DNA from: an uncultured Acidobacteriota bacterium
GTDB taxonomy: Bacteria; Acidobacteriota; Vicinamibacteria; Fen-336
Assembly: GCA_902826455.1 (NCBI GenBank)
Contig: CADEEV010000001.1
Location: 298,983 to 362,982, forward strand
Direction: 5' to 3'
DNA: 64,000 bases
Within the stretch, counting starts at the first letter, position 1. Every line of letters begins with the position of its first letter. Shown here piece by piece: positions 49,282 through 62,566 of this stretch. The position numbers were made by a program, and so were the translations under genes. The notes under the pieces were generated by a model, which saw only the letters and a program-made list of their open reading frames with translations, ran no database searches and was not told where the DNA came from.

Positions 49282-49320
49282 CGGCGCTTTCCTCCTCGCC
49301 CGCCTGGCCGCTTCCTTCAT

Positions 49321-49357: not shown

Positions 49358-49358
49358 G

Positions 49359-50576
49359 TCAAGGGGCCAAGGGGAGGCGCTTCACGATCACGGCCGTGGT
49401 GTCGTCCTCCCAGGGCGCGCCTCGCCCGAAGGCCTGCACGGTGTCGAACAGCGCCTCCAGGATCTGCTCGGCGCTGCCCTCGGCGTGGCTGCGCACCACG
49501 GCCTTGATGCCGTCCTCGCCGAAGAACTCCCCGGCGGCGTTGCGCCGCTCCAGGACGCCGTCGGTGCACAGCACCAGGATCGCGCCCGGCTCGAAGCGCG
49601 TGTAACCGCGCCGGAAGCGCACCTCCGGCAGCGGGCCGATCACGGTGCCCCCGGTCTCCAGGGAATGGACGCCCTCGCGGTCGAACAGGAGCGGCGGCGG
49701 ATGGCCCGCGTTGACGTAGATGAGCGTGCCGTTCACCTCGAGCTCGCCGTAGAAGACCGAGATGAAGCGGCTCGACAGGTTGCTGCGATGGATGACGCGG
49801 TTGAGCCGCTCGAAGACGTGGGCGACCTTGAACTCCTTCTCGATGCCCATGCGCAGGCCGGTGACGACGTCGCGCACGAGCAGGGCGGCCGGCAATCCGT
49901 GGCCGCTCGCGTCGCCGATCGCGAGGCCCAGCATCTCGTCGTCGAAGGGGTGGAAGTCGTAGAAGTCGCCGCCCACCTCCTCGGTGGCCTCGGAACGGCA
50001 CGCGATGTCGAAGCCGGGGAAGTCGGGCGGGTCCTCGACGAGCAGGCTCTGCTGGATCTCCGCGGCCTGGCGCAGGCTGCCGCGCGTGCGCTCGTCCAGC
50101 AGCCGCGAGCCGAGCGCCGCACGCACCGTGTTGAGGGCGAAGTCGAGCTCCTCCATGGCCCAGCCGTCGGCCAGCAGGAAGAACAGCACGTGACGCCGGG
50201 GCCGGCGGCCCACCACGATCGCCGCCGCGGGGCCCGCGGGCAGAATGCCGGTGGAGAAGGGCGCGTCGGGCTCCGTCGGGCGATTGAAGACGTAGACCCG
50301 ATGCCGGAACACGAGCTGCAGCGTCGGGTTCGTGGGATCGAGGGTCTCCGCGGCGCCGCCCGGGTCGCCCAGGCTGCGCAGCAGCGTCAGGTCGTCGCGC
50401 TGCTCGGCGTAGAGGAACGCCGCGCGCAGCCGGAGATCCTCGCGGAGGGTGCGGAAGAAGTCCTCCACGAATGCCTCCAGCACGCGGCTCTGGGGCTGGC
50501 TGGTGTCGAGGCCGCTGAAGAGGCTGTCGAGGCGGCGATAGAGCGGCTTGGCCTCGAGGCGTGGCGGTGTGGCCAT
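49359..50576 (-). CDS. PP2C/SpoIIE-family Ser/Thr phosphatase with an N-terminal sensor (GAF-like) region
   Basis: PP2C motifs (GGDFYDF, GDASGHG, DGVLE). Start reassigned to MATPPRLEAK. Confidence 0.8.
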   Translation of the reverse strand: MATPPRLEAKPLYRRLDSLFSGLDTSQPQSRVLEAFVEDFFRTLREDLRLRAAFLYAEQRDDLTLLRSLGDPGGAAETLDPTNPTLQLVFRHRVYVFNRPTEPDAPFSTGILPAGPAAAIVVGRRPRRHVLFFLLADGWAMEELDFALNTVRAALGSRLLDERTRGSLRQAAEIQQSLLVEDPPDFPGFDIACRSEATEEVGGDFYDFHPFDDEMLGLAIGDASGHGLPAALLVRDVVTGLRMGIEKEFKVAHVFERLNRVIHRSNLSSRFISVFYGELEVNGTLIYVNAGHPPPLLFDREGVHSLETGGTVIGPLPEVRFRRGYTRFEPGAILVLCTDGVLERRNAAGEFFGEDGIKAVVRSHAEGSAEQILEALFDTVQAFGRGAPWEDDTTAVIVKRLPLAP

Positions 50577-50590
50577 GGGGCCTGATCGTA

Positions 50591-51775
50591 TCAGGGAGAC
50601 GGCGTCAGGCCCCGCGCGCCGATCTCGGCCACCACGATCTCGAGGATCTCGTACACCGCCCGGTTCGCCGGAAGCGCCGCGAGGCGGGCGCGCGTCGCGC
50701 CGCTCGCCGCTTCCTCGCGGGCGAAGGCGGCGGCGGCCGCGGGGATCTCCCGCCACGACCGCACGACGACCCCCATTCCCTGCTGGCGGACGAAATGCGC
50801 GTTGTAGCGCTCCTGGGGAATCGTCCTCGCGTCGCACGTCACGACGACCGGGAGGCGCTGATGGAAGGCCTCGGCCAGCGAGCCGGGCCCCGGCTTCGTC
50901 GCCAGCAGATCCGCGGCTGCCATCAGATCGGCGACGCGATCCGTGTAGCCGAACGTCCGCAGCCGGCCACGGGCGCGTCCTTCGAGCGCCGAGAGCTGCG
51001 CGACCAGCTCGGGGTTTTCGCCGCAGACGGCGACGACGCGGAACCCGGCGGGCGCCGCCAGCAGCTGCCCGGCGAGCGGCTCCATCTCGGGCGCGCCCTT
51101 GCCGCCGAAGAGCATCAGGACCACGAAGTCCTCGTCCACGAAACCGAGCTCGTGGCGCACGCGGGCCCGCGCCTCGGCGCCGCCGCCGCGGTGGAAGGCG
51201 GGCCGCAGCGGCATGCCCGAGGTCCGCGAGATGCGGTCGCGGGCGAGCCCCGCCTGGGCGGCCTGCTCGACGGCATGGGCGCCGCCGACGATCGCCCGGT
51301 CGATGCCCGGCTCGATCCAGAAGTGCGGCGGGTAGTCGGCATAGTCGGTGAGGCTGACGAGGAACGGGACGCCGGGATGGCTCAGTCGCACGGCATCGCG
51401 GAGCACCGCGTTGAAGTTCGGCAGCACGGAGACGACCGCCGCGGGCCGCCAGGCGCCGAGGGCGCGTGCGACGGCGCCGGTGAAGGCGCGCTGCCGCACG
51501 CGGATCACGGCGTGGAGCACGTGGAGCATGGCCGGGAGGAACCGGGTCTGGCCGCGCCGGATCAGCCCGTTGTAGGTGTCCTCGGAGGATCGGCCCGTCA
51601 GGCGCTTCATGAAGTCGAGGGGCTCGAGGACGTCCTGCAGGCTCACCAGGCGGATCGCGAACGGGAGATCCTGTTCCTCGGCCGCCGCCGCCAGTGCCCG
51701 CGCCGCGGCGCGATGCCCACCGCCCGCGTCCATGTAGAAGATGACGATCTCCGGCCGCCCGGTCGTGCCTGGCAT
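50591..51775 (-). CDS. GT28 diacylglycerol glycosyltransferase (UgtP / MGDG-synthase family)
   Basis: IVIFYMDAGGGHRAAARAL and TKPGPGSLAEA match UgtP/MGDG-synthase N- and C-terminal motifs. Start taken as ATG 51775 (MPGTTGRPEIV); a further upstream in-frame ATG at 51868 (MKTTETF) would add 31 non-homologous residues. Confidence 0.8.
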   Translation of the reverse strand: MPGTTGRPEIVIFYMDAGGGHRAAARALAAAAEEQDLPFAIRLVSLQDVLEPLDFMKRLTGRSSEDTYNGLIRRGQTRFLPAMLHVLHAVIRVRQRAFTGAVARALGAWRPAAVVSVLPNFNAVLRDAVRLSHPGVPFLVSLTDYADYPPHFWIEPGIDRAIVGGAHAVEQAAQAGLARDRISRTSGMPLRPAFHRGGGAEARARVRHELGFVDEDFVVLMLFGGKGAPEMEPLAGQLLAAPAGFRVVAVCGENPELVAQLSALEGRARGRLRTFGYTDRVADLMAAADLLATKPGPGSLAEAFHQRLPVVVTCDARTIPQERYNAHFVRQQGMGVVVRSWREIPAAAAAFAREEAASGATRARLAALPANRAVYEILEIVVAEIGARGLTPSP

Positions 51776-51797
51776 CGGCAGATGGTCGCGGGCCCGC

Positions 51798-51824
51798 TCG
51801 ACGGCGCCGTGACGGCGCGATGAC
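51798..51824 (-). promoter_or_regulatory. Pho-box-like 11-bp-phased direct repeats upstream of the GT28 gene
   Basis: Minus-strand GTCATCGCGCC-GTCACGGCGCC-GTCGAGCGGGCC, three repeats at 11-nt spacing, ending ~23 nt before ATG 51775. Confidence 0.35.
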
Positions 51825-51940
51825 GCCGCCGCCTCGCCTGCGTCATCGAATGTTTCCGTTGTCTTCATGTTCCCGTCGTTTCGGCGCGCTCCAATAGCCT
51901 CGGACCTCAAGAAGTCCGTGAGGTCCGAGAGGAGGGCGCC

Positions 51941-52834
51941 ATGGAAGACGGCATGCGCTGCGACCTTCACGTCCACTCGCTGTGCTCGGGTCCGCTCGAG
52001 TGCTACTCGACACCGCGGGAGGTCTACGACACCGCGCGGGCCCGCGGCATGACCCTCGTGACCCTCACCGACCACGATTCCATCGAGGGCGCCCTGAGCC
52101 TCGCCCATCTCCGGGACTTCTTCGTGAGCGAGGAGGTGACCTGCCTCCTCCCCGGAGGCCGCCAGCTGCACCTCGGCGTCTTCGGGATCGACGAGGCGCG
52201 GCATGCCGCGATCCAGGAGCGGCGGAAGGACGCCGAGTCGCTGTTCGCCTACCTGGCGGAGGCGCGCATTCCCACGGCCGTCAACCACCTCTTCTCGGCC
52301 CTGACCGGCCGCAGGCGCCTCGCCGACTTCGAGCTGGCCCTGCGCCACGCGCGGCTGATCGAGACGCGCAACGGGATGATGCCCGAGAGCACCAACCACT
52401 TCGCGGCGCGAGTCGGTCGCCGGGCCCGGCTGCCCGGGGTGGGCGGCAGCGACGCCCACACGCTCGCGTCGGTGGCGCGCGCGTTCACTATCGTTCCCGG
52501 CGCCTCGGACCGCGACGGCTTTCTCGACGGCCTGCGGCGGGGCATGACGATCCCGGCCGGGGGCTCGGGCAGCTACGCCCGGCTCACCGCCGACGTGGCC
52601 CGGCTCTTCGCCGGCGGCTACGCCGAGAACGCGCGCCGCGCCCGCTCCGGCCTGGTTCCGGCCCTGCGCTTCACGGCCCTTCTCGCCGCGCTGCCGCTCC
52701 TGCCCCTGCTGCCGCTCATCACCGCCGGCATCTACGCCGACGAGGTCTTCTTCGGCGCGCGCCAACACCGGCTCTACGAAGCCGCCCAGGCGACGCTCGA
52801 CGCCGCCGCGCCGGGCGCCGTGGTGTCGCGATGA
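51941..52834 (+). CDS. PHP-domain metal-dependent phosphoesterase
   Basis: CDLHVHS...LTDHDS PHP motifs; 297 aa. Confidence 0.8.
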   Translation: MEDGMRCDLHVHSLCSGPLECYSTPREVYDTARARGMTLVTLTDHDSIEGALSLAHLRDFFVSEEVTCLLPGGRQLHLGVFGIDEARHAAIQERRKDAESLFAYLAEARIPTAVNHLFSALTGRRRLADFELALRHARLIETRNGMMPESTNHFAARVGRRARLPGVGGSDAHTLASVARAFTIVPGASDRDGFLDGLRRGMTIPAGGSGSYARLTADVARLFAGGYAENARRARSGLVPALRFTALLAALPLLPLLPLITAGIYADEVFFGARQHRLYEAAQATLDAAAPGAVVSR

Positions 52835-53373
52835 GCCCGGTGCTCGCCTACGTCAACGACTCGGACTTTCGCGCCTTCGGCCGCATCCAGCAGTGGCGTC
52901 CGCCGCGCTGGTTCCGTCTCTGGATGCTGTGGGCCACGCGCCTGGGCGACGGCTGGCTGCAGGTCGCCATCGGCCTCGCGCTCTTCGCCGGCGGCTCCGA
53001 GTCCCAGCGGGTGCTCGCGGCGAGCGTCGTCGCCACCGGGATCGCGAGCGGACTGCTCGTCGTCCTGAAGCGGCGCTTCCGTCGCCAGCGGCCCTGCGAC
53101 TACGCCCGTCACCCCCTGTACGACGTCAAGCCGCTCGAGTACGTGGCCGCGGACCACTTCTCCTTTCCCTCGGGGCACTCCATGAACGCCTTCGCCGTGT
53201 CCACCGTCGTCGCGCTGTCGTTCCCCTGGACGACTCCAGTCGGCCTGCTCCTCGCGACGAGCGTGGCCGCGTCCCGGGTCCTCCTCGGCCTCCACTTCGT
53301 GAGCGACGTGATCGTGGGCTCCGTGCTCGGCGCCGGCATCGCTGCGATCATCTTCCTTGTGCTGCTCGCCTAG
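52831..53373 (+). CDS. PAP2-family (phosphatidic acid phosphatase type 2) membrane phosphatase
   Basis: KRRFRRQRP...PSGHS...SRVLLGLHFVSDV, the three PAP2 signature motifs; 4-5 TM. ATGA-coupled to the PHP gene. Confidence 0.8.
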   Translation: MSPVLAYVNDSDFRAFGRIQQWRPPRWFRLWMLWATRLGDGWLQVAIGLALFAGGSESQRVLAASVVATGIASGLLVVLKRRFRRQRPCDYARHPLYDVKPLEYVAADHFSFPSGHSMNAFAVSTVVALSFPWTTPVGLLLATSVAASRVLLGLHFVSDVIVGSVLGAGIAAIIFLVLLA

Positions 53374-53388
53374 CCTAGACTCGGCGCC

Positions 53389-54699
53389 ATGCTCGCCCTG
53401 CTACTGGCCGCGGCCCTTGCGCCCGCGCCTCCCGTCGTGCTGATCTCGATCGACGGGATGCGACCCGACTACGTGCTCGAGGCCGATCGCTACGGTCTCC
53501 AGATTCCCGAGCTGCGGCGGCTGCTGAAGGAGGGCGCCCACGCCGCCGCCGTGACCGGGGTGATGCCCACCGTCACCTATCCGAGCCACACCACGCTGGT
53601 GACGGGCGTGTCGCCGGCGAAGCATGGCCTCGTCGCCAACGAGACCTTCGATCCGCTCGGGAAGAACCACGACGGCTGGGCCTGGTACGCCGAGGACATC
53701 CGCGTCGAGACGCTGTGGGATGCGGCCGCTAAGGCAGGCCTCGTGGTGTCCAACGCGGATTGGCCCGCGACCGTGGGCGCGCGCATCCCGTTCAACATCG
53801 CGCAGATCTGGCGCGCCAGCACCCCCGACGACGCGAAGCTGCTGCGGGCGGTCTCGACGCCCGGGCTGCTGCGGGAGATGGAAGCGAGCCTCGGGCCGTA
53901 CCCGAGCGGCTACTCGTACACCGTGAGCGACGACGAGAAGAAGGTGCCCTTCACCGCATGGCTGCTGGAGAGGAAGCGCCCGCGCTTGCACCTGTGCTAC
54001 TTCTCCGGTCTCGACGAGGAGTCCCACGCCAGCGGGCCGGGCAGCCCCGAGACGCTCGCGGTCCTCGAGCGACTGGACGCCGTGATCGGCCGGGTGCGTG
54101 CCGCGGCCGAGCGCGCGGGTGGCGGCAAGGCCATCGTGGCCGTCGTTTCAGACCACGGGCACCAACGCACGGACCGTGAGCTCCACCTGAACGAGGCGCT
54201 GCGCGAAGAAGGCCTCCTGACGCTGGACGGTGCCGGCAAGCTCACGGACTGGCGGGCCTTCTCCTGGGATGCTGGCGGGTCGGCCGCAGTCTTCCTCAAG
54301 GACCCCGCCGACGTGGACGGGGGACAACGCGTGACGGCGCTCCTGAAGCGGCTCGCGGCCGATCCGGGGAGTGGCATCGAGCGGATCGTCGGGTCCGATG
54401 CGGTGCCGGCGACCGGCGGCTTTCCGGGCGCTCTCTTCGTGGTCGGCTTGAAGGCCGGGTACCGGTTCGGGAGCTCTCTCGAGGCCCCCGTGACCCGCCA
54501 AGGTCTCGTCCACGGCACCCACGGCTACCCGCCGGACCTGCAGACGATGGACGCCTCGTTCTTCATCGCGGGCCCGGGTATTCCGGCGGGCCTCGATCTC
54601 GGCCGCATCGACATGCGGGACATCGCGCCGACCCTGGCGGGCCGCCTCGGTCTCGTGCTGCCGGCGGCCGAAGGCCGCGACCGGCTCAGCGCTCGCTGA
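53389..54699 (+). CDS. Type I phosphodiesterase / nucleotide pyrophosphatase (NPP, alkaline-phosphatase superfamily)
   Basis: LISIDGMRPDY and TVTYPSHTTLVTG (Thr nucleophile motif), plus VVSDHGH; signal peptide. Confidence 0.85.
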   Translation: MLALLLAAALAPAPPVVLISIDGMRPDYVLEADRYGLQIPELRRLLKEGAHAAAVTGVMPTVTYPSHTTLVTGVSPAKHGLVANETFDPLGKNHDGWAWYAEDIRVETLWDAAAKAGLVVSNADWPATVGARIPFNIAQIWRASTPDDAKLLRAVSTPGLLREMEASLGPYPSGYSYTVSDDEKKVPFTAWLLERKRPRLHLCYFSGLDEESHASGPGSPETLAVLERLDAVIGRVRAAAERAGGGKAIVAVVSDHGHQRTDRELHLNEALREEGLLTLDGAGKLTDWRAFSWDAGGSAAVFLKDPADVDGGQRVTALLKRLAADPGSGIERIVGSDAVPATGGFPGALFVVGLKAGYRFGSSLEAPVTRQGLVHGTHGYPPDLQTMDASFFIAGPGIPAGLDLGRIDMRDIAPTLAGRLGLVLPAAEGRDRLSAR

Positions 54700-54960
54700 C
54701 GCGCCGGTCGTCCCCGCCGAGACCGGCCTCGGTGAGGATCTCGTCGATCACGGTGCGACCCGTATCGGCGCTTCCCGGCCCGAGGCGCATCCAGGCGGGA
54801 GGCCGTCCCGGCGGGGCGTGACGGCCACGCCGCCGCCGGGCGGCTCGTTGGCTGGCGAGACGTCCAAAGGGACGCTTCTGTCGAGACATGCTTGAGGGAA
54901 AGGTTAGGCCCGGGCCATGACGGTCGCGTGGCGCTCGCGCGATGGTCCGGCCACTCTTTC

Positions 54961-55000
54961 TTAACGTCCCGTTCACGCGTCCGTCACGCCGGCGTCACGC
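54961..55000 (+). promoter_or_regulatory. Pho-box-like direct repeat array upstream of oprP
   Basis: TTAACgtcccg-TTCACgcgtcc-GTCACgccggc-GTCACgc, four pentamer cores at exact 11-bp phasing, 40-80 nt upstream of the oprP ATG (55042), which has an AAGGAGG RBS. Confidence 0.45.
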
Positions 55001-55041
55001 ACCCCTCCTAAGTTGACGGCATCTCAAGGAGGCGTGTTTTG

Positions 55042-56517
55042 ATGACAGCCAAGGCGATCCGGCGCGGTCTCGCGACGGCAGCAGCGGTTCTGATCGGCGT
55101 GGGACTCACGGCCAGTGCCTGGGCCCAGAATTTCTTCTATCGCGAGATCGTGAAGGACGGGCGCATCTACGTCTTCGCCATCGCGAAGGAAGCGGAGCAG
55201 TTCGAGAAGTCGGGCGAGGTCGGCCGCGCGATCACGAAGCTCGGCTACGGCCCGAACGGCGAGACCATGGTCTTCGACAGCGAGGACGCCATCGGCCTCT
55301 ACAACATGAAGCACGACCGGCCCGGCGACGTCACCGCGGTCGCGAAGCCCGTCGTCGCGCCCAAGCAGCTCCTCACCTACAAGGACGGGCAGCTCACGGC
55401 CGAGTTCGACAAGGCACAGGTGAGCTTCACGAATCGCCTCCAGCTGCGCTTCACCCAGCAGATGCCCGACGAGACGGTGCAGCTCGCCGGGACGTCGGCG
55501 AAGGGCGACGGCAAGGGCTCCTTCCGCATCCGCCGCTACGAGCCCCAGTTCCAGGGCTGGCTCTACACGAAGGACCTCACCTTCAAGCTCGAGTTCGCGT
55601 TCCAGGACCTGCAGGGCAACACGAACTCCGGCGCCATCAACGACGCCTACTTCAACTACGACCTCACGAAGGGCAAGAAGGCGTTCCGCCTGCAGTTCGG
55701 TCAGTTCAAGGTGCCCTTCGGCCGCCAGGAGCTGACCTCGTCCTTCAACCAGACCTTCGTCGACCGCTCGATCGTGGCGGGCGAGTTCGAGCGCGGCCGT
55801 GACCTGGGCTTCCAGGTGGACGGCCTGCTCGCCTCCAACAAGGTCGAGTACCGCGCCGGCATCTTCAACGGCCGCGCCAGCAACACGGGCCGCAACCAGA
55901 CCGCGAACGACAACGACAAGTACCAGTACGACGCGCGTCTCATGTGGCAGCCCTTCGGCGACGTCCGCTACTCGGAGAGCGACTTCGAATCGGTGGACAA
56001 GCCGCTCCTCGCGATCGCCGGCGGGTTCGAGAGCCTCGACCTCGGGCTGACGGTGCCGCAGCCTGCGGCCACCGTGCCGCCCGCGCCGCCCGCGACGCCG
56101 CTGCCGAAGATCTCGGCCTGCCCGTGCGCGGCCGGCAACTACAAGTGGACGATCTTCGCCACCGACGTGGTCTTCAAGTACAAGGGCTTCTCCGCGATGG
56201 GCGAGCTCTTCAACCGCGAGATCAAGCCCTCGGACGGCGCGACGCCGGACTCGCCGACGTTCAAGTCGAACGGCTATCACGTCCAGGCGGGCTACCTGCT
56301 CAACAAGAAGCGGACCTGGGAAGTGGCGTTCCGCTACGCCTCGTTCGATCCCACGAACGCCGTCTCGGGCAACGACCGCACGGAGATCGGCGGCGGACTG
56401 AACTGGTTCTACAACAAGCACTTCGCGAAGATCCAGGCCGACTGGCGTCAGCTCGAGGACAAGGCGAAGAAGACGAAGGACCAGGAAGTCCGCATCCAGA
56501 CGCAGCTCTACTTCTAG
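55042..56517 (+). CDS. oprP: Phosphate-selective porin OprO/OprP
   Basis: 492 aa; signal peptide; beta-barrel; C-terminal F. Immediately upstream of pstSCAB. The track ORF starts at TTG 55039; ATG 55042 is preferred. Confidence 0.85.
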   Translation: MTAKAIRRGLATAAAVLIGVGLTASAWAQNFFYREIVKDGRIYVFAIAKEAEQFEKSGEVGRAITKLGYGPNGETMVFDSEDAIGLYNMKHDRPGDVTAVAKPVVAPKQLLTYKDGQLTAEFDKAQVSFTNRLQLRFTQQMPDETVQLAGTSAKGDGKGSFRIRRYEPQFQGWLYTKDLTFKLEFAFQDLQGNTNSGAINDAYFNYDLTKGKKAFRLQFGQFKVPFGRQELTSSFNQTFVDRSIVAGEFERGRDLGFQVDGLLASNKVEYRAGIFNGRASNTGRNQTANDNDKYQYDARLMWQPFGDVRYSESDFESVDKPLLAIAGGFESLDLGLTVPQPAATVPPAPPATPLPKISACPCAAGNYKWTIFATDVVFKYKGFSAMGELFNREIKPSDGATPDSPTFKSNGYHVQAGYLLNKKRTWEVAFRYASFDPTNAVSGNDRTEIGGGLNWFYNKHFAKIQADWRQLEDKAKKTKDQEVRIQTQLYF

Positions 56518-56576
56518 TCCGGCAGGCGGGGGCGGGCGCGTGGCGCCCGCGCCCCGCATCTCTCGAATCCCATCGA

Positions 56577-56613
56577 ATTAACGCGGAGTTAACAGAGGCG
56601 AAACGTCCCGTTC
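56577..56613 (+). promoter_or_regulatory. Pho-box-like repeats upstream of pstS, sharing a 12-mer with the oprP upstream region
   Basis: TTAAC-N7-TTAAC-N7-AACGTCCCGTTC. The 12-mer AACGTCCCGTTC is identical to 54963-54974. Confidence 0.4.
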
Positions 56614-56671
56614 CCAGGCCCTCGCTAGATTGAGGGACATGGAAAAGCGGTTCGCCCCGGAGGTAGGTCTC

Positions 56672-57637
56672 ATGAAGCGTATCGTCGCTGCCGTCGCTCT
56701 CGTCGCGGCCGGTGCGGCCACGGCCGGCGCCCAGCAGGTGAAGGTCGATGCCGCGATCACGTCGTACCAGAAGACGTCGGGTGTCTCGGGGAACCTGAAC
56801 AGCGTCGGTTCCGACACCATGAACAACCTGATGACGCTCTGGGCCGAGGCGTTCCTCAAGATGTACCCGAACGTGAAGGTGCAGGTCGAGGGCAAGGGCT
56901 CCTCGACGGCGCCGCCCTCGCTGATCGCGGGCACGTCGCAGTTCGGCCCCATGTCCCGCGCGATGCGTCCGACGGAGATCGACCAGTTCGAGACGAAGTA
57001 CGGCTACAAGCCGACGCAGCTCCGCACGTCCTACGACGCCCTCGCGATCTACGTGAACAAGGACAACCCCCTCGACAAGCTGACCCTGGCCCAGGCCGAC
57101 GCGGTCTTCTCGAAGACGCGCCGCCGCGGCTTCAAGCAGAACGTCACGACCTGGGGCCAGCTCGGTCTCACGGGCGACTGGGCGAACCGGCCGATCAGCA
57201 TCTACGGCCGCAACTCGGCCTCGGGCACCTACGGCTTCTTCAAGGAGCACACCCTCGGCAACGGCGACTTCAAGGACACGGTCAAGGAGCAGCCCGGTTC
57301 GGCGTCGGTGGTGCAGGGCGTGACCGAGGACCGCTTCGGCATCGGCTACTCGGGCATCGGCTACAAGACCTCCGGCGTCAAGGTCGTGACGCTCGCCGAG
57401 AAGGACGGCTCGGCCTACTCCGACGGCAACTACGAGGACGTGAAGAGCGGCAAGTACCCGCTCAACCGCTTCCTCTACCTCTACATCAACCGCGCGCCGG
57501 GCAAGCCCCTCGACCCCGTCGTGAAGGAGTTCTGCAAGCTGATCTTCAGCAAGGAAGGCCAGGACGTCGTGCTCAAGGACGGGTACCTGCCGCTTCCGGC
57601 CGAGATCGTGCGCCAGGAACTCGCGAAGCTCGAGTAG
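56672..57637 (+). CDS. pstS: Phosphate ABC transporter substrate-binding protein PstS
   Basis: Signal peptide; PstS family motifs (SGNLNSVGSDTM, GTYGFF). Start at MKRIVAAV with a GGAGG RBS. Confidence 0.9.
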   Translation: MKRIVAAVALVAAGAATAGAQQVKVDAAITSYQKTSGVSGNLNSVGSDTMNNLMTLWAEAFLKMYPNVKVQVEGKGSSTAPPSLIAGTSQFGPMSRAMRPTEIDQFETKYGYKPTQLRTSYDALAIYVNKDNPLDKLTLAQADAVFSKTRRRGFKQNVTTWGQLGLTGDWANRPISIYGRNSASGTYGFFKEHTLGNGDFKDTVKEQPGSASVVQGVTEDRFGIGYSGIGYKTSGVKVVTLAEKDGSAYSDGNYEDVKSGKYPLNRFLYLYINRAPGKPLDPVVKEFCKLIFSKEGQDVVLKDGYLPLPAEIVRQELAKLE

Positions 57638-57647
57638 CTCTCCCTGT

Positions 57648-57674
57648 CCGGGAGCGGGGCTGCCCCGCTCCCGG
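57648..57674 (+). terminator. Strong intra-operon stem-loop between pstS and pstC (attenuator/partial terminator)
   Basis: Perfect 12-bp stem CCGGGAGCGGGG-ctg-CCCCGCTCCCGG, 10 nt after the pstS stop. The downstream tail is only weakly U-rich. Confidence 0.4.
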
Positions 57675-57715
57675 ATCTCTTCCAGCCGCAGCTCCCCGGA
57701 GATCGAAGAAGCCCC

Positions 57716-60013
57716 ATGGCCGCAGCCGCTCCAGCCCCCCTCAGCATCCGGCAGCGCGTCAAGGAACAGGCGTTCCGCATCAAGCGCGTGAAGCAGATGG
57801 ACCGCCTGGCGGTCGGGTTCATCACCTTCGGCGGGCTCTTCATCATCGTCGCGGTCCTCTTCATCTTCGTCTTCATCCTGTCGGAAGCGCTGCCGCTGTT
57901 CCGGCCGGCCACTGGCCAGGCCCGCGGCGTCGTGAACCTGGCCGCCGTGCCGCCGCCGACCCTCCCGCCGGCGACCGTGGCGACGGCGCCCGCGCCCAAG
58001 GCCGCCAGCCCCGGCGAGCTGGGCAAGCCCCTGGTGATGGGCACCGACGAGTACCAGCTCTACTTCTACGAGCTGCTGTCGGACGGCCGCACGGCGTTCT
58101 TCAAGACCGACGGCACGTTCGCCAAGGAGGTCACGTCGACGGCCCTGGCTCCGTCCAAGGTCGCCTCGGCGTCCCGCAGCCTCACCGACAACTTCGTGGC
58201 GATCGGCACCGACGACGGTCGCGTGCTCCTGCAACAGGTGCGCTTCCGTCCGCGCTACGAGAACCAGAAGCTCGTCGACCTCGAGACCGAGGTGAGCGAG
58301 CGCGGCGTGGTCGAGCTCGACGCCGCGAAGCGGCCGATCCGCGAGATCGCCTACGACGAGAAGGACGGCCGCAAGACGGCGATCGCGGTGGCGGGAGACG
58401 ACGACATCCTCGTCTACCGCACGGACGACGACGGCACCGAGCACCGCGAGGCCCTGAAGACCCGGGACGGCGAGAAGGTCACGCGGGTCCGCATCGGCCG
58501 CAGCGACACCCTGATCGCGGCGACCGACAGGGGTCACCTGTACCACTGGGAGCTCCTGCCCGAGGTGCGCCTCACCGAGGTGGTGAAGGTCTCGAACGAG
58601 CCGATCACCGCGGTCGAGTACGTGCTCGGGGGCATCACGGCCATCGTGGGCGACGCCAAGGGGAACCTGAGCGCGTGGTTCCGCGTGCGCCTGCGCGAGG
58701 ACGACACCGACCTCAAGTTCGTGAAGGCTCACGAGTACGCGCCGCAGGGCGTCGTCATCGCCGCGATCGGCCCGTCGACCCGCGACAAGAGCTTCGTGAG
58801 CGCCGGCTCCGACGGCTCCCTGGTGCTGCGCCACATGACCTCGGAGCGCAGCCTGCTCGAGTTCCCGTCGACCCAGGCGCCCGTGGACTCCGTCCTGCTG
58901 ACGCCCAAGATGGACGGGATCCTCGCGAAGCAGGCCGATGGCAAGGTGGCCCGCTACGAGATCTCGAGCCCGCATCCCGAGGTGTCCTGGCGCGCGCTCT
59001 TCGGCAAGGTCTGGTACGAGGGCTACACGAAGCCCGAGTACGTCTGGCAGTCGACCGGCGGCACCGACGACTTCGAGACCAAGTTCTCGCTGGTGCCGCT
59101 CGTCTTCGGCACGATCAAGGGCACGCTGTATGCGCTGCTCTTCGCGATACCCCTGGCGATCCTGGGGGCGCTCTACACGTCGCAGTTCATGCACCCGTCG
59201 ATCAAGGCGCGGGTCAAGCCGACGGTCGAGATCATGGCCGCCCTGCCCAGCGTCGTGGTGGGCTTCATCGCGGGCCTCTGGCTCGCCTCGCGGGTGGAGC
59301 GCGAGATCGTGCCCGTGCTCCTGATGATGGTCCTGCTGCCGTTGTTCGGGACGCTCGGCATCCTGCTGTGGGATCGGCTGCCGCGCGCCTTCCGCGACCG
59401 TCTGCGGCCCGGCATGGAGATCGCGCTGATCGTGCCCCTCGTCTGCCTGGGCGGGGTGGTGGCCGTCTGGATCGGCCCGCTCACGGAGGCCGCGCTCTTC
59501 GGAGGCGACTTCCGGCTCTGGGTGAAGAGCGCCCTCGACGTGGTCTACGACCAGCGCAACTGCCTGGTCGTCGGCATCGCGATGGGCTTCGCGGTGATCC
59601 CCATCATCTTCACGATCGCCGAGGACTCGTTCTCGAGCGTGCCCCAGCACCTGACGGCGGCCTCGCTCGCCCTCGGGGCCAGCCGCTGGCAGACCGCGAT
59701 GCGGGTGGTCCTGCCGACCGCGAGCCCGGGCCTGTTCTCCGCCGTGATGATCGGCTTCGGCCGCGCCGTCGGCGAGACCATGATCGTGCTGATGGCCACC
59801 GGCAACACGCCGGTCCTCGACTGGTCGATCTTCAACGGCATGCGCACGCTCTCGGCGAACATCGCCGTGGAGATCCCCGAGGCGCCCTACGGCGGCACGC
59901 TCTACCGCACGCTGTTCCTCGCGGCCCTCGCGCTCTTCCTCATGACCTTCTTCGTCAACACGATCGCGGAGCTGATCCGCCAGCGGCTGCGCGACCGCTA
60001 CCGGGCCATCTGA
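57716..60013 (+). CDS. pstC: Phosphate ABC transporter permease PstC (long form with a large N-terminal periplasmic domain)
   Basis: 765 aa; the C-terminal ~300 aa carry the PstC TMs and EAA loop; the N-terminal ~450 aa are an extra domain, as in long-form PstC proteins. Confidence 0.9.
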   Translation: MAAAAPAPLSIRQRVKEQAFRIKRVKQMDRLAVGFITFGGLFIIVAVLFIFVFILSEALPLFRPATGQARGVVNLAAVPPPTLPPATVATAPAPKAASPGELGKPLVMGTDEYQLYFYELLSDGRTAFFKTDGTFAKEVTSTALAPSKVASASRSLTDNFVAIGTDDGRVLLQQVRFRPRYENQKLVDLETEVSERGVVELDAAKRPIREIAYDEKDGRKTAIAVAGDDDILVYRTDDDGTEHREALKTRDGEKVTRVRIGRSDTLIAATDRGHLYHWELLPEVRLTEVVKVSNEPITAVEYVLGGITAIVGDAKGNLSAWFRVRLREDDTDLKFVKAHEYAPQGVVIAAIGPSTRDKSFVSAGSDGSLVLRHMTSERSLLEFPSTQAPVDSVLLTPKMDGILAKQADGKVARYEISSPHPEVSWRALFGKVWYEGYTKPEYVWQSTGGTDDFETKFSLVPLVFGTIKGTLYALLFAIPLAILGALYTSQFMHPSIKARVKPTVEIMAALPSVVVGFIAGLWLASRVEREIVPVLLMMVLLPLFGTLGILLWDRLPRAFRDRLRPGMEIALIVPLVCLGGVVAVWIGPLTEAALFGGDFRLWVKSALDVVYDQRNCLVVGIAMGFAVIPIIFTIAEDSFSSVPQHLTAASLALGASRWQTAMRVVLPTASPGLFSAVMIGFGRAVGETMIVLMATGNTPVLDWSIFNGMRTLSANIAVEIPEAPYGGTLYRTLFLAALALFLMTFFVNTIAELIRQRLRDRYRAI

Positions 60014-61650
60014 TGAACGCCCTCGTGAAGTCCTGGCGGCGCGGCGATCCGATGGTGTGGTTCACCGGCAGCGCCCTGGGCATCTGCATCCTGATGATCG
60101 TGGGGCTCGTCCTCGTCATCCTCACCAACGGCTTGAGCTTCTTCTGGCCGAAGGCGCTGACGCAGCTCACCTTGAAGGACGGCAGCGTCCTCATGGGCGA
60201 GCTCGCGTCGAGCGAGCCCATCCCGAACCCGGGCCACCCCGACCACCTCCAGAAGCAGCGCCTGCTCGTGCGCGTGGGCAACCGCGACGTCTACGGCTTC
60301 GACTTCAAGTGGGTGCCCGAAGGCGACATCGCGAAGCAGGAGCGGCCTCGCGACGCCTACTTCGTGGAGCGCCGCGAGTACGGGCCGTTACTCGGGACGC
60401 CGGTCCGGGTGAAGCAGGGCGACAAGATCCTGGCCGAGGGCGCGGCCGCCGTCGAGCTCGCCCTCCCGGGCCTGATCGCCCGTGCTGCGGAGGACCGCTC
60501 CGCCATCGAGCGCATCGAGAAGCACGAGATCGGCGACATCAACTACGAGATCGAGCGTCTGCGGCTCGAGTCCCGCGCCCTCGACCTCGCGGCCAGCCGC
60601 GGCCAGGACGTGGCCGAGAAGCGCGCCGACGTCGAGCGCGCCACGGCGGCCCAGAAGGCGCTGTTCCAGACGAAGACCGACGAGCTCGCCCAGCTCACCG
60701 AGCGCGTCGCCGGCACCTGGGTCGCCTTCGTCACCGCCGACGGCCAGGAAAAGGAGCTGCGGTCCCTCGACATCTACCGCTCCTACGCCGCGAACCAGCT
60801 CACCCTCCTCGGACGGCTCTCGGTCTACGGCGGCCGGCTCTGGGCCTTCTTCATCGAGGGTCCGCGCGAGTCGAACACCGAGGGCGGCATCTTCCCGGCC
60901 ATCTTCGGCACCGTGATGATGGTGATCATCATGAGCATCATCGTGGTGCCCCTGGGCGTGCTGGCCGCGCTCTACCTGCGCGAGTACGCGAAGCAGGGCC
61001 TGCTCGTCCGGATCGTCCGGATCGCGGTCAACAACCTGGCCGGCGTGCCGTCCATCGTCTTCGGCGTGTTCGGCCTCGGCTTCTTCGTGTACACCGTCGG
61101 CGGCACGATCGACGCATTGTTCTTCCCCGAGGCGCTCCCGACGCCGACTTTCGGCACCGGAGGCATCCTCTGGGCGGCCTTGACCCTGGCGCTCCTCACG
61201 GTGCCCGTCGTGATCGTGTCCTCGGAGGAGGCGCTCGCCGCCGTGCCGCGCTCGATGCGCGAGGCGTCCCTCGCCATGGGCGCCACGAAGTTCCAGACCA
61301 TCCTGCGCGTGGTGCTGCCGGCGGCCGCGCCCGGCATCCTCACGGGACTGATCCTCGCCATGGCGCGCGGCGCGGGCGAGGTGGCGCCGCTGATGCTGAC
61401 GGGCGTCGTCAAGCTGGCGCCCGAGCTGCCCGTCGACGGCTTCTTCCCGTTCTTCCACTTCGACCGGAAGTTCATGCACCTGGGCTTCCACATCTACGAC
61501 GTGGGCTTCCAGAGCCCGAACGTCGAGGCGGCGAAGCCCATGGTCTACACGACGACGATCTTCCTGCTCCTGATCGTGGTGCTCCTGAACCTCACCGCGA
61601 TCGTGGTCCGCAACCGGCTTCGCGAGAAGTACAAGACCGGCGCCTTCTAG
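60013..61650 (+). CDS. pstA: Phosphate ABC transporter permease PstA (long form)
   Basis: 545 aa; PstA TMs and EAA loop (EASLAMGATKFQTILRVVLP). The ATG overlaps the pstC stop (TGATG). Confidence 0.9.
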   Translation: MNALVKSWRRGDPMVWFTGSALGICILMIVGLVLVILTNGLSFFWPKALTQLTLKDGSVLMGELASSEPIPNPGHPDHLQKQRLLVRVGNRDVYGFDFKWVPEGDIAKQERPRDAYFVERREYGPLLGTPVRVKQGDKILAEGAAAVELALPGLIARAAEDRSAIERIEKHEIGDINYEIERLRLESRALDLAASRGQDVAEKRADVERATAAQKALFQTKTDELAQLTERVAGTWVAFVTADGQEKELRSLDIYRSYAANQLTLLGRLSVYGGRLWAFFIEGPRESNTEGGIFPAIFGTVMMVIIMSIIVVPLGVLAALYLREYAKQGLLVRIVRIAVNNLAGVPSIVFGVFGLGFFVYTVGGTIDALFFPEALPTPTFGTGGILWAALTLALLTVPVVIVSSEEALAAVPRSMREASLAMGATKFQTILRVVLPAAAPGILTGLILAMARGAGEVAPLMLTGVVKLAPELPVDGFFPFFHFDRKFMHLGFHIYDVGFQSPNVEAAKPMVYTTTIFLLLIVVLLNLTAIVVRNRLREKYKTGAF

Positions 61651-61656
61651 AAGGAA

Positions 61657-62511
61657 ATGAGCGCAATGTCCCAGGGAACGACGAAAGCGCCGCCCGACAG
61701 CGGGCTGCGCATCCGCACCGAGGTCAAGGCCGCCGTGGCGCCCGCCGCGGACAAGGGCGAGCCCGACATCACGATCGACGCGGTGAACCTGAGCTACGGC
61801 GACAACCACGTCCTCCACGACATCACCATGGCCATCGACGACCGGCGCGTGACCGCGTTCATCGGACCGTCGGGGTGCGGCAAGTCGACGCTGCTGCGTT
61901 GCCTCAACCGGATGAACGACCTCATCGACAACGTGAGGATCACCGGCAAGATCACGGTCAAGGGCCTCGACATCAACGCCGCCACGACCGACGTGATCGA
62001 GGTGCGGCGCCGCATCGGCATGGTCTTCCAGAAGTCGAACCCGTTCCCGAAGTCGATCTACGAGAACGTGGTGTACGGCCTGCGCATCGCCGGCATCAAC
62101 GACAAGGCGACCCTCGACGAGGCCTGCGAGCGCAGCCTCAAGGGCGCGGCACTGTGGGAAGAGGTGAAGGACCGCCTCGACGAGAGCGGGCTCGGGCTCT
62201 CCGGGGGACAGATGCAGCGGCTCTGCATCGCCCGCGCCATCGCCGTCGAGCCCGAGGTGATCCTGATGGACGAGCCCTGCTCGGCCCTGGACCCGATCGC
62301 CACCCTCAAGATCGAGGAGCTGATCTACGGCCTCAAGGACAAGTACACGATCGTGATCGTGACCCACAACCTGCAGCAGGCCGCCCGGGTCTCGGACAAG
62401 ACGGCGTTCTTCTGGCTCGGCAGGCTCGTGGAGTACAGCCCGACGGCCGACATGTTCACGAAGCCCGGGGACAAGCTGACGGAGGACTACATCACTGGCC
62501 GGTTCGGTTAG
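61657..62511 (+). CDS. pstB: Phosphate ABC transporter ATP-binding protein PstB
   Basis: Walker [25 protein letters not shown] signature, Walker B ILMDEP. Confidence 0.95.
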
Positions 62512-62566
62512 AGCGCGGGCGGAGAGCGCGGGGACGCCGTCGATCGCGGACACATAGGAAAGAGTC

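What the first reader, a model, noticed from the sequence alone, without database searches (positions are those of the whole stretch)
50591..54699. A phosphoester/lipid-remodelling gene cluster directly upstream of the Pho regulon: candidate phosphate-starvation membrane-lipid replacement and Pi-scavenging module
Immediately upstream of oprP-pstSCAB-phoUB, and divergently arranged, lie four genes. One is a UgtP/MGDG-synthase-family GT28 glycosyltransferase, which adds a sugar to diacylglycerol. Another is a PAP2 phosphatidate phosphatase, which produces diacylglycerol from phosphatidate. The other two are a PHP-domain phosphoesterase and a secreted NPP-type phosphodiesterase. Together they could strip phosphate head groups from phospholipids and replace them with glycolipids while releasing Pi. 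This is functionally analogous to the PlcP-Agt system of marine bacteria and rhizobia, but built from different enzyme families (PAP2 + GT28 + PHP). Pho-box-like repeats sit upstream of the GT28 gene. The combination and its linkage to the pst operon do not appear to match a characterised operon.
Basis: inference. Interest (0 to 1): 0.7.

Follow-up and report, generated by a model that had tools for sequence, protein, structure and literature searches.

The report
Phosphate-starvation glycolipid module in Acidobacteria
Next to the phosphate-uptake genes of a soil acidobacterium sits a small gene set, carrying the binding sites of the phosphate-starvation regulator and conserved across the phylum, that most likely swaps phosphate-containing membrane lipids for sugar lipids using enzymes different from those known in other bacteria.

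Summary
The four genes are real and lie at the stated coordinates: GT28 glycosyltransferase (minus strand), then PHP phosphoesterase, PAP2 lipid phosphatase and NPP phosphodiesterase (plus strand). They sit upstream of porin-pstSCAB-phoU-phoB. The Pho-box claim holds. Tandem 11-nt [G/T]TCAC repeats face both GT28 and PHP, with the same geometry as the boxes before the porin and pstS genes. In the 64-kb window the motif occurs only at these three places.

Comparative data sharpen the picture. The conserved unit is PAP2(±PHP) divergent from GT28, found across Acidobacteriota.
- GT28-centred scan: 46 of 83 loci carry the PAP2 partner.
- PHP-centred scan: PAP2 follows in 65/69 loci and GT28 is divergent in 52/55.
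- Pho-box motifs in the shared intergenic region: 59 observed against 0.9 expected.

NPP and adjacency to pst are lineage-specific extras.

GT28 matches plant MGD1 and bacterial DAG glucosyltransferase at full length (E 1e-37 and 1e-35), and does not match MurG. The best reading is a PhoB-activated PA→DAG→glycosyl-DAG lipid-replacement module. It is analogous to PlcP-Agt but not homologous to it. The role of the membrane-tethered PHP is unknown. All biochemistry is inferred.

The parts
50591..51775 (-). GT28 glycosyltransferase of the MGD1/UgtP (diacylglycerol glycosyltransferase) branch, 394 aa. Probably translated from a leaderless mRNA.
   Evidence: Pfam Glyco_tran_28_C and MGDG_synth. PDB matches: MGD1 4wyi at E = 7e-25 with the single sequence and 1e-37 with the profile, full length; processive DAG beta-glucosyltransferase 9wde at 1.5e-35; no MurG hit at E <= 0.01. 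The GGGH loop aligns to the corresponding loop of MGD1. There is no Shine-Dalgarno sequence, and the -10-like hexamer lies 6 nt before the ATG.
49359..50576 (-). PP2C/SpoIIE-type phosphatase with an unassigned N-terminal domain of about 180 aa. It lies 14 nt downstream of GT28 on the same strand and is probably co-transcribed. An accessory gene specific to Vicinamibacteria.
   Evidence: SpoIIE E = 2e-43. Follows GT28 in 11 of 18 Vicinamibacteria-type loci. PDB best match is the Rv1364c phosphatase domain at 1e-15. Intergenic sequence.
51792..51824 (-). Pho box facing GT28: three tandem 11-nt units (GTCATcgcgcc GTCACggcgcc GTCGAgcgggc). A 4-nt gap and a -10-like GACCAT (51787-51782) follow.
   Evidence: Half-sites are invariant and spacers variable in 5 and in 16 related loci.
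51842..51885 (+). Pho box facing PHP: four tandem 11-nt units (GTCAT / TTTCC / TTCAT / GTCGT). A 4-nt gap and a -10-like TCCAAT (51890-51895) follow.
   Evidence: GTCAC, ATGTTTC and CTTCAT are conserved across relatives.
51899..51929 (+). Small stem-loop at the predicted 5' end of the PHP mRNA, just before the ribosome-binding site (CTCGGACCTCA-n9-TGAGGTCCGAG).
   Evidence: A 6-bp consensus stem with some compensatory changes in 14 loci. No Rfam family matches.
51941..52834 (+). PHP-fold metal-dependent phosphoesterase with a C-terminal hydrophobic, proline-rich helical tail (a probable membrane tether). Substrate unknown.
   Evidence: PHP_C E = 5e-11. Metal ligands are invariant in 38 sequences. 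The AF2 model has pLDDT 94. Foldseek returns only generic PHP proteins at 16-20% identity. PAP2 follows it in 65/69 loci and GT28 is divergent from it in 52/55 loci.
52831..53373 (+). PAP2 integral-membrane lipid phosphate phosphatase, 180 aa. Its start overlaps the PHP stop. Proposed phosphatidate phosphatase that supplies diacylglycerol.
   Evidence: PAP2 E = 4.5e-23. The motifs KRRFRRQRP, PSGH and SRVLLGLHFVSD can be read in the translation. Weak PDB matches to LpxE, PgpB and acid phosphatases. Divergent partner of GT28 in 46 of 83 loci.
53389..54699 (+). NPP-type phosphodiesterase/pyrophosphatase with a short hydrophobic N-terminus (a probable signal peptide). It lies 15 nt after PAP2. An accessory gene in this lineage.
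   Evidence: Phosphodiest E = 3e-48. Xanthomonas NPP 2gsn at 6e-20, and ENPP4/5. Present only in the window/L001, L003 and L090. N-termini compared.
54961..55004 (+). Pho box of the porin-pst operon: four tandem units (TTAAC / TTCAC / GTCAC / GTCAC), then a 4-nt gap and a -10-like TAAGTT (55009-55014). This is the reference box for this lineage.
   Evidence: The same arrangement lies before the porin or pstS gene in L002, L008, L017 and L021.
55042..63966 (+). Context genes: OprP-like porin, pstS (with its own TTAAC-type box at 56578-56621), long pstC, pstA, pstB, phoU and a PhoB-type response regulator.

Best explanation
This is a PhoB-activated divergent gene pair (divergon) for membrane-lipid renovation. 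When phosphate runs low, PhoB~P binds tandem 11-nt boxes in the 165-bp region between GT28 and PHP and switches on both transcripts.

Proposed steps:
1. The PAP2 enzyme dephosphorylates phosphatidate (or a related lipid phosphate) to diacylglycerol and releases Pi.
2. The GT28 enzyme, a relative of plant MGD1 and bacterial UgtP, transfers a hexose from a UDP-sugar to that diacylglycerol. The product is a phosphorus-free glycosyl-diacylglycerol that replaces phospholipid.
3. The PHP protein is a cytoplasmic metal-dependent phosphoesterase held at the membrane by its C-terminal helices. It most likely acts upstream of PAP2 or alongside it. My preferred guess is that it cleaves phospholipid head groups to give phosphatidate or diacylglycerol.
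4. In this genome the operon also carries an exported NPP phosphodiesterase for external Pi scavenging. The GT28 transcript also carries a PP2C regulatory phosphatase.

Shown here: gene content, family membership, conserved linkage, and conserved Pho-type promoter architecture. Inferred: regulation by PhoB, every substrate, and the lipid product.
For: **Pho control**
- Four promoters in the window share one geometry: 3-4 tandem 11-nt [G/T]T[C/A]A[C/T] units, a 4-nt gap, then a -10-like hexamer. The promoters are those of GT28, PHP, the porin gene and pstS.
- The two-unit motif occurs nowhere else in the 64 kb.
- Half-sites are conserved and spacers variable in 16 related intergenic regions.
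- In the GT28-centred set the motif density is 2.6/kb upstream of GT28 against 0.077/kb elsewhere. It is present in 32/47 loci that have the PAP2/PHP partner and in 4/36 that lack it.
- In the independent PHP-centred set there are 59 motifs in 41 of 64 intergenic regions, against 0.89 +/- 0.99 in dinucleotide shuffles.
- The unit definition matches published PHO boxes: 11-nt direct repeats, with E. coli core CTGTCAT and S. coelicolor core GTTCACC (PMC4415409).

**Functional linkage**
- PAP2 is the divergent neighbour of GT28 in 46/83 loci across Vicinamibacteria, Bryobacterales and Terriglobales.
- This PHP subfamily has PAP2 directly downstream in 65/69 loci and GT28 divergent upstream in 52/55 loci.
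- No other gene is broadly conserved around the unit.

**Enzymology by homology**
- GT28 matches MGD1 and a processive DAG glucosyltransferase at full length (1e-37 and 1.5e-35). MurG is absent from the hit list.
- PAP2 has its three catalytic motifs intact.
- Bacterial PAP2 enzymes with phosphatidate phosphatase activity are documented (PMC3599759, PMC8225852).
- The PHP metal ligands are invariant.

**Precedent for the logic**
- PlcP-Agt in bacteria (PMC4796936, PMC8231724).
- Pi-starvation-induced type-B MGD (GT28) in plants (PMC3276260).
Against: - No expression, binding or lipid data exist.
- PAP2 substrate specificity cannot be read from sequence. Its similarity to LpxE, PgpB, undecaprenyl-diphosphatases and acid phosphatases is about equally weak.
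- The PHP model matches only generic or nucleotide-acting PHP enzymes, so a lipid substrate is a guess.
- About a third of partnered loci lack the simple two-unit motif.
- Some Vicinamibacteria keep GT28-PP2C without PAP2, PHP or any box (L005, L010, L011, L013, L014). In those lineages GT28 may be constitutive.
- The loci are phylogenetically related, so the counts overstate independence.
- The side of the membrane that the PAP2 active site faces was not resolved.
- The window's own PHP lacks 10 residues that are present in all 37 aligned homologues.
Confidence: 0.6

Rival explanations
1. Pi scavenging only. PHP, PAP2 and NPP are general Pho-induced phosphatases that release Pi from assorted phosphoesters. 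GT28 makes a housekeeping glycolipid, and its adjacency reflects shared regulation rather than a shared pathway.
For: NPP and PAP2-type acid phosphatases are classic Pho-regulon scavengers. The best PDB hits for PAP2 include soluble acid phosphatases. GT28-PP2C exists without PAP2, PHP or boxes in some relatives.
Against: The PAP2 here is a 180-aa, all-membrane protein, not a secreted acid phosphatase. PHP has no signal peptide; its catalytic HxH motif begins at residue 10. The linkage of PHP to PAP2 and GT28 is about 94%. The boxes face GT28 as well.
Confidence: 0.12
2. Envelope glycan or lipid-carrier pathway. PAP2 recycles undecaprenyl diphosphate and GT28 acts like MurG on a polyprenol-linked acceptor. 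The effect would be to switch surface polymers to phosphate-free forms under Pi stress.
For: NCBIfam gives weak hits of PAP2 to the undecaprenyl-diphosphatases SepP and YbjG (1e-8, 4e-5) and a weak hit of GT28 to MurG (3e-5). GT28 is the CAZy family that contains MurG.
Against: GT28 aligns at full length to MGD1 and UgtP with E-values about 30 orders of magnitude better than to MurG. MurG structures are not recovered at E <= 0.01 even with a profile. The MGDG_synth N-terminal domain is detected in 17/18 family members. No other glycan-assembly genes are conserved nearby.
Confidence: 0.1
3. Lipid A remodelling. PAP2 (LpxE/LpxF-like) and PHP strip phosphates from lipid A, and GT28 adds a sugar in their place. 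This would save phosphorus and lower surface charge.
For: Aquifex LpxE (6ebu, also 180 aa) aligns over nearly the whole PAP2 (residues 35-174, E = 9e-6). Lipid A dephosphorylation under Pi stress is known in other bacteria (my own knowledge, not tested here).
Against: The LpxE match is no better than the matches to PgpB or acid phosphatases. Known lipid A glycosylations use GT-C enzymes and polyprenyl-phosphate sugars at the periplasmic face (my own knowledge). GT28 is a cytoplasmic, nucleotide-sugar GT-B enzyme most similar to DAG glycosyltransferases.
Confidence: 0.08
4. Chance neighbourhood. The genes are unrelated, and the repeats upstream of GT28 are fortuitous.
For: The two-unit pattern with one mismatch is not enriched in the window on its own (4 against 5.2 expected). 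Adjacency to pst is not conserved outside a subset of Vicinamibacteria.
Against: Linkage is conserved over the whole phylum. Motifs are enriched 30- to 80-fold in the shared intergenic region of two independent locus sets. Four promoters share an identical geometry.
Confidence: 0.03

Closest known systems
PlcP-Agt lipid-renovation operon (Sinorhizobium/Agrobacterium, SAR11, Pseudomonas aeruginosa)
   Same: A Pho-regulated pair of adjacent genes. One is a phosphoesterase that yields diacylglycerol. The other is a glycosyltransferase that turns it into a phosphorus-free glycosyl-diacylglycerol (PMC4796936, PMC8231724, PMC8528852). The overall logic proposed here is the same.
   Different: There is no homology. 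PlcP is a Mn-dependent calcineurin-like metallophosphoesterase and Agt is a GT4 enzyme. Here the phosphoesterases are PAP2 and PHP, and the transferase is GT28. The genes here are divergent rather than tandem. A monoesterase (PAP2) implies phosphatidate as the intermediate, not a direct phospholipase-C cut.
Plant plastid / Pi-starvation galactolipid pathway (phosphatidate phosphatases + type-B MGD2/MGD3)
   Same: The glycosyltransferase family is the same: GT28, with MGD1 the best solved-structure match at 1e-37 over the full length. The proposed chemistry is the same: phosphatidate to diacylglycerol to monoglycosyl-diacylglycerol. Type-B MGDs are induced by Pi starvation (PMC3276260).
   Different: The plant pathway is eukaryotic, with dispersed genes and regulation by plant Pi signalling. 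No PHP partner is known there. No second (DGD-type) transferase is conserved near the bacterial module.
UgtP/YpfP processive diacylglycerol glucosyltransferase of Firmicutes; MGD homologues of Chloroflexi
   Same: Bacterial GT28 enzymes that act on diacylglycerol. NCBIfam best hit is PRK13609 at 1e-28. PDB 9wde matches at 1.5e-35.
   Different: The scores are far below the equivalog cut-off (100 against 500 bits), so this is a separate subfamily. UgtP makes the lipoteichoic-acid anchor. To my knowledge it is not paired with PAP2 or PHP and is not behind Pho boxes.
Bacterial PAP2 phosphatidate phosphatases (Streptomyces coelicolor Lpp-alpha/beta, Mycobacterium smegmatis PAPs)
   Same: Membrane PAP2 enzymes that convert phosphatidate to diacylglycerol for synthesis of a non-phospholipid (PMC3599759, PMC8225852).
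   Different: Those enzymes feed triacylglycerol synthesis and are not reported as partners of a glycosyltransferase or as Pho-regulon members. Orthology to the PAP2 here was not tested.

Membership tests
PlcP-Agt lipid-renovation system | The phosphoesterase is a PlcP-type calcineurin-like metallophosphoesterase (Mn-dependent; PMC8231724). | tested here: not met
   None of the four proteins hits a Metallophos-type model at E <= 0.01. The phosphoesterases are PHP_C/PHP, PAP2 and Phosphodiest.
PlcP-Agt lipid-renovation system | The glycosyltransferase is an Agt-type GT4 enzyme (PMC8231724). | tested here: not met
   The enzyme is GT28 (Glyco_tran_28_C, MGDG_synth), and MGD1/UgtP are the best structure-database matches. 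There is only a sub-threshold Glyco_trans_1_4 hit (17 bits against a cut-off of 27).
PlcP-Agt lipid-renovation system | The phosphoesterase and glycosyltransferase genes are adjacent and under Pho control. | tested here: met
   Divergent adjacency is conserved. Pho-type boxes lie in the shared intergenic region. Control is inferred from motifs only.
PlcP-Agt lipid-renovation system | Phospholipid is converted to diacylglycerol and glycolipid accumulates under P limitation. | not testable with these tools
   Requires lipidomics and enzyme assays.
GT28 diacylglycerol glycosyltransferases (MGD1 / UgtP type) | Full-length similarity to characterised DAG glycosyltransferases rather than to MurG. 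| tested here: met
   Profile against PDB: 4wyi MGD1 at 1e-37 (positions 6-387 against 4-386) and 9wde at 1.5e-35. No MurG chain at E <= 0.01. NCBIfam: UgtP 1e-28 against MurG 3e-5.
GT28 diacylglycerol glycosyltransferases (MGD1 / UgtP type) | An MGDG_synth N-terminal domain together with a Glyco_tran_28_C domain. | tested here: met
   17/18 and 16/18 family members match. The window protein itself scores 17.5 bits for MGDG_synth, below the 25-bit cut-off, and 25.9 bits for Glyco_tran_28_C, above the 22-bit cut-off.
GT28 diacylglycerol glycosyltransferases (MGD1 / UgtP type) | An N-terminal G-loop histidine (DxGGGH) equivalent to the catalytic His of MGD1. | tested here: met
   D16-A-G-G-G-H21-R22 is invariant in 18 sequences. 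It aligns to SDTGGGHRA of MGD1. The identity of that His as the catalytic base comes from my own knowledge of the MGD1 structure paper.
GT28 diacylglycerol glycosyltransferases (MGD1 / UgtP type) | Transfers a hexose from a UDP-sugar to diacylglycerol. | not testable with these tools
   Requires an enzyme assay or heterologous expression.
PAP2 lipid phosphate phosphatases | Three catalytic motifs: KxxxxxxRP, PSGH and SRxxxxxHxxxD. | tested here: met
   KRRFRRQRP, PSGH and SRVLLGLHFVSD can be read in the translation. Pfam PAP2 E = 4.5e-23.
PAP2 lipid phosphate phosphatases | Phosphatidate is the physiological substrate. | not testable with these tools
   Sequence matches to PgpB, LpxE, SepP and acid phosphatases are all weak and similar.
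PHP (polymerase and histidinol phosphatase) superfamily | A distorted TIM-barrel fold with a His/Asp/Glu metal-binding constellation. | tested here: met
   H10, H12, D44/H45, E65, H77, H116, D171 and H173 are invariant or nearly so. The AF2 model has pLDDT 94. Foldseek probability is 1.0 to PHP structures.
PHP (polymerase and histidinol phosphatase) superfamily | Belongs to a characterised PHP subfamily (histidinol phosphatase, pAp phosphatase Cv1693, RNase AM, CehA/McbA). | tested here: not met
   NCBIfam scores are 17-42 bits against cut-offs of 80-400. PDB sequence match covers only the N-terminal 85 residues at E = 7e-4. Structural matches have 13-20% identity and TM about 0.5.
Pho regulon | Tandem 11-nt direct-repeat PHO boxes occupying the -35 region (PMC4415409). 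| tested here: met
.
Pho regulon | Transcription induced by Pi limitation through PhoR-PhoB. | not testable with these tools
   A PhoB-type regulator is encoded at 63241-63966. PhoR is not in the window. No expression data are available.
NPP / ENPP phosphodiesterases | Alkaline-phosphatase-superfamily core with a Thr nucleophile and metal ligands. | tested here: met
   Phosphodiest E = 3e-48. The motifs SIDG, TYPSHTT and SDHGH can be read in the translation. Xanthomonas NPP 2gsn matches at 6e-20.

The most novel reading that the evidence does not exclude
The membrane-tethered PHP protein may be a new kind of phospholipid head-group phosphodiesterase, that is, a PHP-fold phospholipase C or D. 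With PAP2 and GT28 it would form a complete three-enzyme route: phospholipid to phosphatidate or diacylglycerol, then to glycolipid, with Pi released directly. This route would be the Acidobacteriota-wide, non-homologous counterpart of PlcP-Agt, and it would explain how a dominant soil phylum economises on phosphorus.
Probability: 0.25. Interest if true: 0.75.

Novelty: new variant of a known kind. Interest (0 to 1): 0.6.

Why it matters
Acidobacteriota are among the most abundant soil bacteria, and soils are often phosphorus-limited. Yet the genes by which this phylum spares membrane phosphorus are not described in the literature I could search.

If the module works as proposed, three things follow.
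- It gives a genetic marker for lipid renovation in soil metagenomes: PAP2-GT28, with or without PHP, behind Pho boxes.
- It shows that the phospholipid-to-glycolipid switch evolved at least twice from unrelated enzymes, with the acidobacterial version resembling the plant plastid route.
- It assigns a first physiological context to an uncharacterised PHP subfamily that is almost always linked to PAP2 and GT28.

It also defines the Pho box and promoter geometry of this phylum, which can be used to map its Pho regulon.

Tried and rejected
1. **GT28 start at ATG 51868** (425 aa, as in the public gene call P0001): rejected. Homologues are 384-400 aa. The extra 31 codons overlap the conserved Pho box and show non-triplet indels in relatives.
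2. **Small minus-strand ORF at about 54697-54890** between NPP and the porin gene: no codon-position GC signal. Treated as non-coding.
3. **GTCAC-N6-GTCAC with one mismatch, in the window alone:** not enriched. Comparative data were needed.
4. **Known RNA families in 48-58 kb:** none at E <= 1.
5. **Further conserved partner genes:** all-against-all clustering of flanking ORFs in 149 loci. Beyond GT28, PHP and PAP2, no cluster is present in more than 17 loci. The MscS-like channel gene and the CsoR (and probably CopA) genes are lineage-restricted neighbours.
6. **Fold search with the PHP model** to obtain a substrate hint: only generic PHP matches.
7. **Terminator and promoter consensus scan:** nothing useful inside the cluster.
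9. **Literature search for a described PAP2+GT28+PHP or acidobacterial Pi-lipid system:** nothing found. The library holds only open-access papers.
10. **PHP apparently missing from L003:** it is a degraded copy. Only the first 48 aa match.

Full report
**What is in the sequence**

The window is about 70% G+C, so mechanical ORF lists are crowded with artefacts. Codon-position GC and domain searches give one consistent gene map.

| Coordinates | Strand | Gene |
|---|---|---|
| 48563-48889 | - | thioredoxin |
| 48949-49347 | - | CsoR/RcnR-type repressor |
| 49359-50576 | - | PP2C/SpoIIE phosphatase |
| 50591-51775 | - | GT28 glycosyltransferase |
| 51941-52834 | + | PHP phosphoesterase |
| 52831-53373 | + | PAP2 phosphatase (start overlaps the PHP stop) |
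| 53389-54699 | + | NPP phosphodiesterase (15 nt after PAP2) |
| 55042-56517 | + | OprP-like porin |
| 56630-63966 | + | pstS, a long pstC, pstA, pstB, phoU, PhoB-type regulator |

One correction concerns the GT28 start. A public gene call uses the ATG at 51868 (425 aa). Homologues are 384-400 aa, and the extra stretch is the conserved regulatory region. The ATG at 51775 is the likely start.

**Pho boxes**

Upstream of the porin gene lie four tandem 11-nt units: TTAAC / TTCAC / GTCAC / GTCAC. The same arrangement precedes the porin or pstS gene in four related contigs. It fits the published definition of PHO boxes as tandem 11-nt direct repeats. Published cores are CTGTCAT in E. coli and GTTCACC in Streptomyces (PMC4415409).

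The 165-bp region between GT28 and PHP holds two such arrays.
- Three units face GT28 (51824-51792, minus strand).
- Four units face PHP (51842-51885, plus strand).

All four promoters in the window have the same geometry: the array, a 4-nt gap, then a -10-like hexamer with A at position 2 and T at position 6. The hexamers are GACCAT, TCCAAT, TAAGTT and TAGATT. The relaxed two-unit motif occurs nowhere else in the 64 kb on either strand.

For GT28 the -10 hexamer ends 6 nt before the ATG, and there is no Shine-Dalgarno sequence. The mRNA is therefore probably leaderless (inference).

**Conservation**

*Neighbourhood look-ups.* Six GT28 homologues at 56-100% identity gave the first pattern: PAP2<-PHP divergent from GT28->PP2C. 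Adjacency to pst and presence of NPP varied between loci.

*GT28-centred scan.* A scan of one genome per species returned 80 loci from Vicinamibacteria, Bryobacterales, Terriglobales and related groups. I searched these, together with the look-up loci, with tblastn using the window's proteins; 83 loci could be evaluated.
- PAP2 is the divergent neighbour of GT28 in 46 of 83 loci.
- PHP lies between PAP2 and GT28 in 21 loci.
- PP2C follows GT28 only in Vicinamibacteria-type loci (11 of 18).
- pst genes lie within 10 kb in only 7 Vicinamibacteria loci.
- NPP is present only in the window and in L003.

*PHP-centred scan.* A scan of metagenome contigs asked the reverse question. PAP2 is immediately downstream of PHP in 65 of 69 evaluable loci, and GT28 is divergent upstream in 52 of 55.

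*Other partners.* Clustering all flanking ORFs found no further broadly conserved partner.

The evolutionary unit is therefore PAP2 (with or without PHP) plus GT28. NPP, PP2C and the pst neighbourhood are additions in this lineage.

**Boxes travel with the unit**

In the GT28-centred set the two-unit motif has 2.6 occurrences per kb in the 200 nt upstream of GT28, against 0.077 per kb in the rest of the loci. It is present in 32 of 47 loci that have the PAP2/PHP partner and in 4 of 36 that lack it.

In the independent PHP-centred set, 41 of 64 intergenic regions carry 59 motifs in total. Dinucleotide-preserving shuffles of the same sequences give 0.89 +/- 0.99, with a maximum of 5.

Alignments of 5 and of 16 Vicinamibacteria-type intergenic regions show invariant half-sites with variable spacers. 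The loci are related, so these are not independent trials. The footprint pattern and the association with partner genes nonetheless argue for function. L007 carries the unit with boxes but has no pst genes nearby. Regulation therefore does not depend on the neighbourhood.

**The enzymes**

*GT28.* Pfam finds Glyco_tran_28_C and, across the family, MGDG_synth. Against solved structures, the family profile matches Arabidopsis MGD1 over the full length (E = 1e-37) and a processive diacylglycerol beta-glucosyltransferase (1.5e-35). No MurG chain reaches E = 0.01. The invariant DAGGGH loop aligns with the SDTGGGH loop of MGD1. GT28, GT4 and GT21 are the known glycoglycerolipid synthase families (PMC8231724).

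*PAP2.* It is a 180-aa membrane protein with all three catalytic motifs. Its substrate cannot be assigned from sequence. Bacterial PAP2 phosphatidate phosphatases are known (PMC3599759, PMC8225852).

*PHP.* Its metal ligands are invariant and the model is confident (pLDDT 94). It resembles only generic PHP enzymes at 13-20% identity. It has no signal peptide. It ends in long helices that include a conserved hydrophobic, proline-rich segment, so it is probably tethered to the cytoplasmic face of the membrane.

*NPP.* It is a typical NPP/ENPP enzyme with a short hydrophobic N-terminus.

**Mechanism proposed**

PhoB~P activates both arms of the divergon.
1. PAP2 converts phosphatidate to diacylglycerol and releases Pi.
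2. GT28 makes glycosyl-diacylglycerol, which replaces phospholipid.
3. PHP, linked almost obligately to the other two, most likely supplies or processes a phosphorylated lipid intermediate. My preferred guess is head-group cleavage of phospholipids. Alternatives include hydrolysis of CDP-DAG or PGP, or hydrolysis of a nucleotide product.
4. NPP scavenges external phosphodiesters.
5. PP2C resembles partner-switching phosphatases such as the Rv1364c domain and RssB. It may couple Pi stress to another regulatory circuit.

Only the gene content, family assignments, linkage and promoter architecture are shown. The rest is inference.

**Comparison with known systems**

The logic matches PlcP-Agt (PMC4796936, PMC8231724, PMC8528852), but neither defining protein family is present. 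The module is an analogue, not a member.

The chemistry and the transferase family match the plant route from phosphatidate through diacylglycerol to MGDG. In plants the type-B MGD enzymes of that route are induced by Pi starvation (PMC3276260).

I found no paper describing this module or acidobacterial Pi-responsive lipid genes. The library covers open-access papers only.

**Rivals**

- *Scavenging only.* This does not explain the roughly 94% linkage of a cytoplasmic PHP and a membrane PAP2 to a DAG glycosyltransferase.
- *Lipid-carrier/MurG-like pathway and lipid A remodelling.* Both are disfavoured by GT28's clear placement with DAG glycosyltransferases. They cannot be excluded without assays.
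- *Chance.* Excluded by the conservation and motif statistics.

**Verdict**

This is a new variant of a known kind of system: Pho-regulated replacement of phospholipids by glycolipids. It is conserved across a major soil phylum and contains an uncharacterised PHP partner. Interest is 0.6.

Noticed in passing
window 49359-50576 (-): A PP2C/SpoIIE phosphatase gene lies 14 nt downstream of GT28 on the same strand, so it would be transcribed from the Pho-box promoter. It follows GT28 in 11 of 18 Vicinamibacteria-type loci, including loci without PAP2, PHP or boxes. Its best structural relatives by sequence are partner-switching or regulatory phosphatases (Rv1364c, RssB, SiaA). The N-terminal 180 or so residues match no family.
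   Followed up: partly
window 57716-61650 (+): PstC is 765 aa, with weak beta-propeller/WD40-like hits in roughly residues 140-430. PstA is 546 aa. Both are far longer than usual. The long PstC is conserved in relatives (751 aa in L002 and L003).
   Followed up: no
window 51941-52834 (+), after codon 19: The window's PHP protein lacks a 10-residue segment (consensus VDLPxLGRFGN, just after the HxH motif) that is present in all 37 aligned homologues. The same sequence appears in a second public assembly (L001). The effect on activity is unknown.
   Followed up: partly
window 51899-51929 (+): A small stem-loop lies between the predicted transcription start and the ribosome-binding site of PHP. 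A 6-bp consensus stem is kept in 14 related loci with a few compensatory changes. It could be a 5'-end stabiliser or a translational control element. No Rfam family matches.
   Followed up: partly
window 56578-56631 (+): pstS has its own box array of the TTAAC type (TTAAC / TTAAC / GAAAC / TTCCC), followed by TAGATT. That hexamer overlaps the TTG at 56630 that begins the mechanical ORF, so the true pstS start codon must lie further downstream.
   Followed up: partly
L003 9233-9835: In this related MAG the gene in the PHP position matches PHP only over its first 48 residues and then diverges. It is either a frameshifted pseudogene or an assembly error.
   Followed up: yes
L057 (labelled Verrucomicrobiia) and L042 (Acidobacteriota): A contig binned as Verrucomicrobiia carries the complete PHP-PAP2 / GT28 unit. 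It has the same flanking MscS-like channel gene as an acidobacterial contig. This is either horizontal transfer or misbinning.
   Followed up: no
window 49334-49362 (-): A near-consensus sigma-70 promoter (TTGACA, 17 nt, TATATT) lies directly upstream of the CsoR/RcnR-type repressor gene. It marks that gene and the thioredoxin gene as a unit separate from GT28-PP2C.
   Followed up: no
L005, L010, L011, L013, L014: Some Vicinamibacteria keep the GT28-PP2C pair but have neither PAP2/PHP nor Pho-box motifs upstream. This suggests that the glycosyltransferase is expressed constitutively, or regulated differently, in those lineages.
   Followed up: partly
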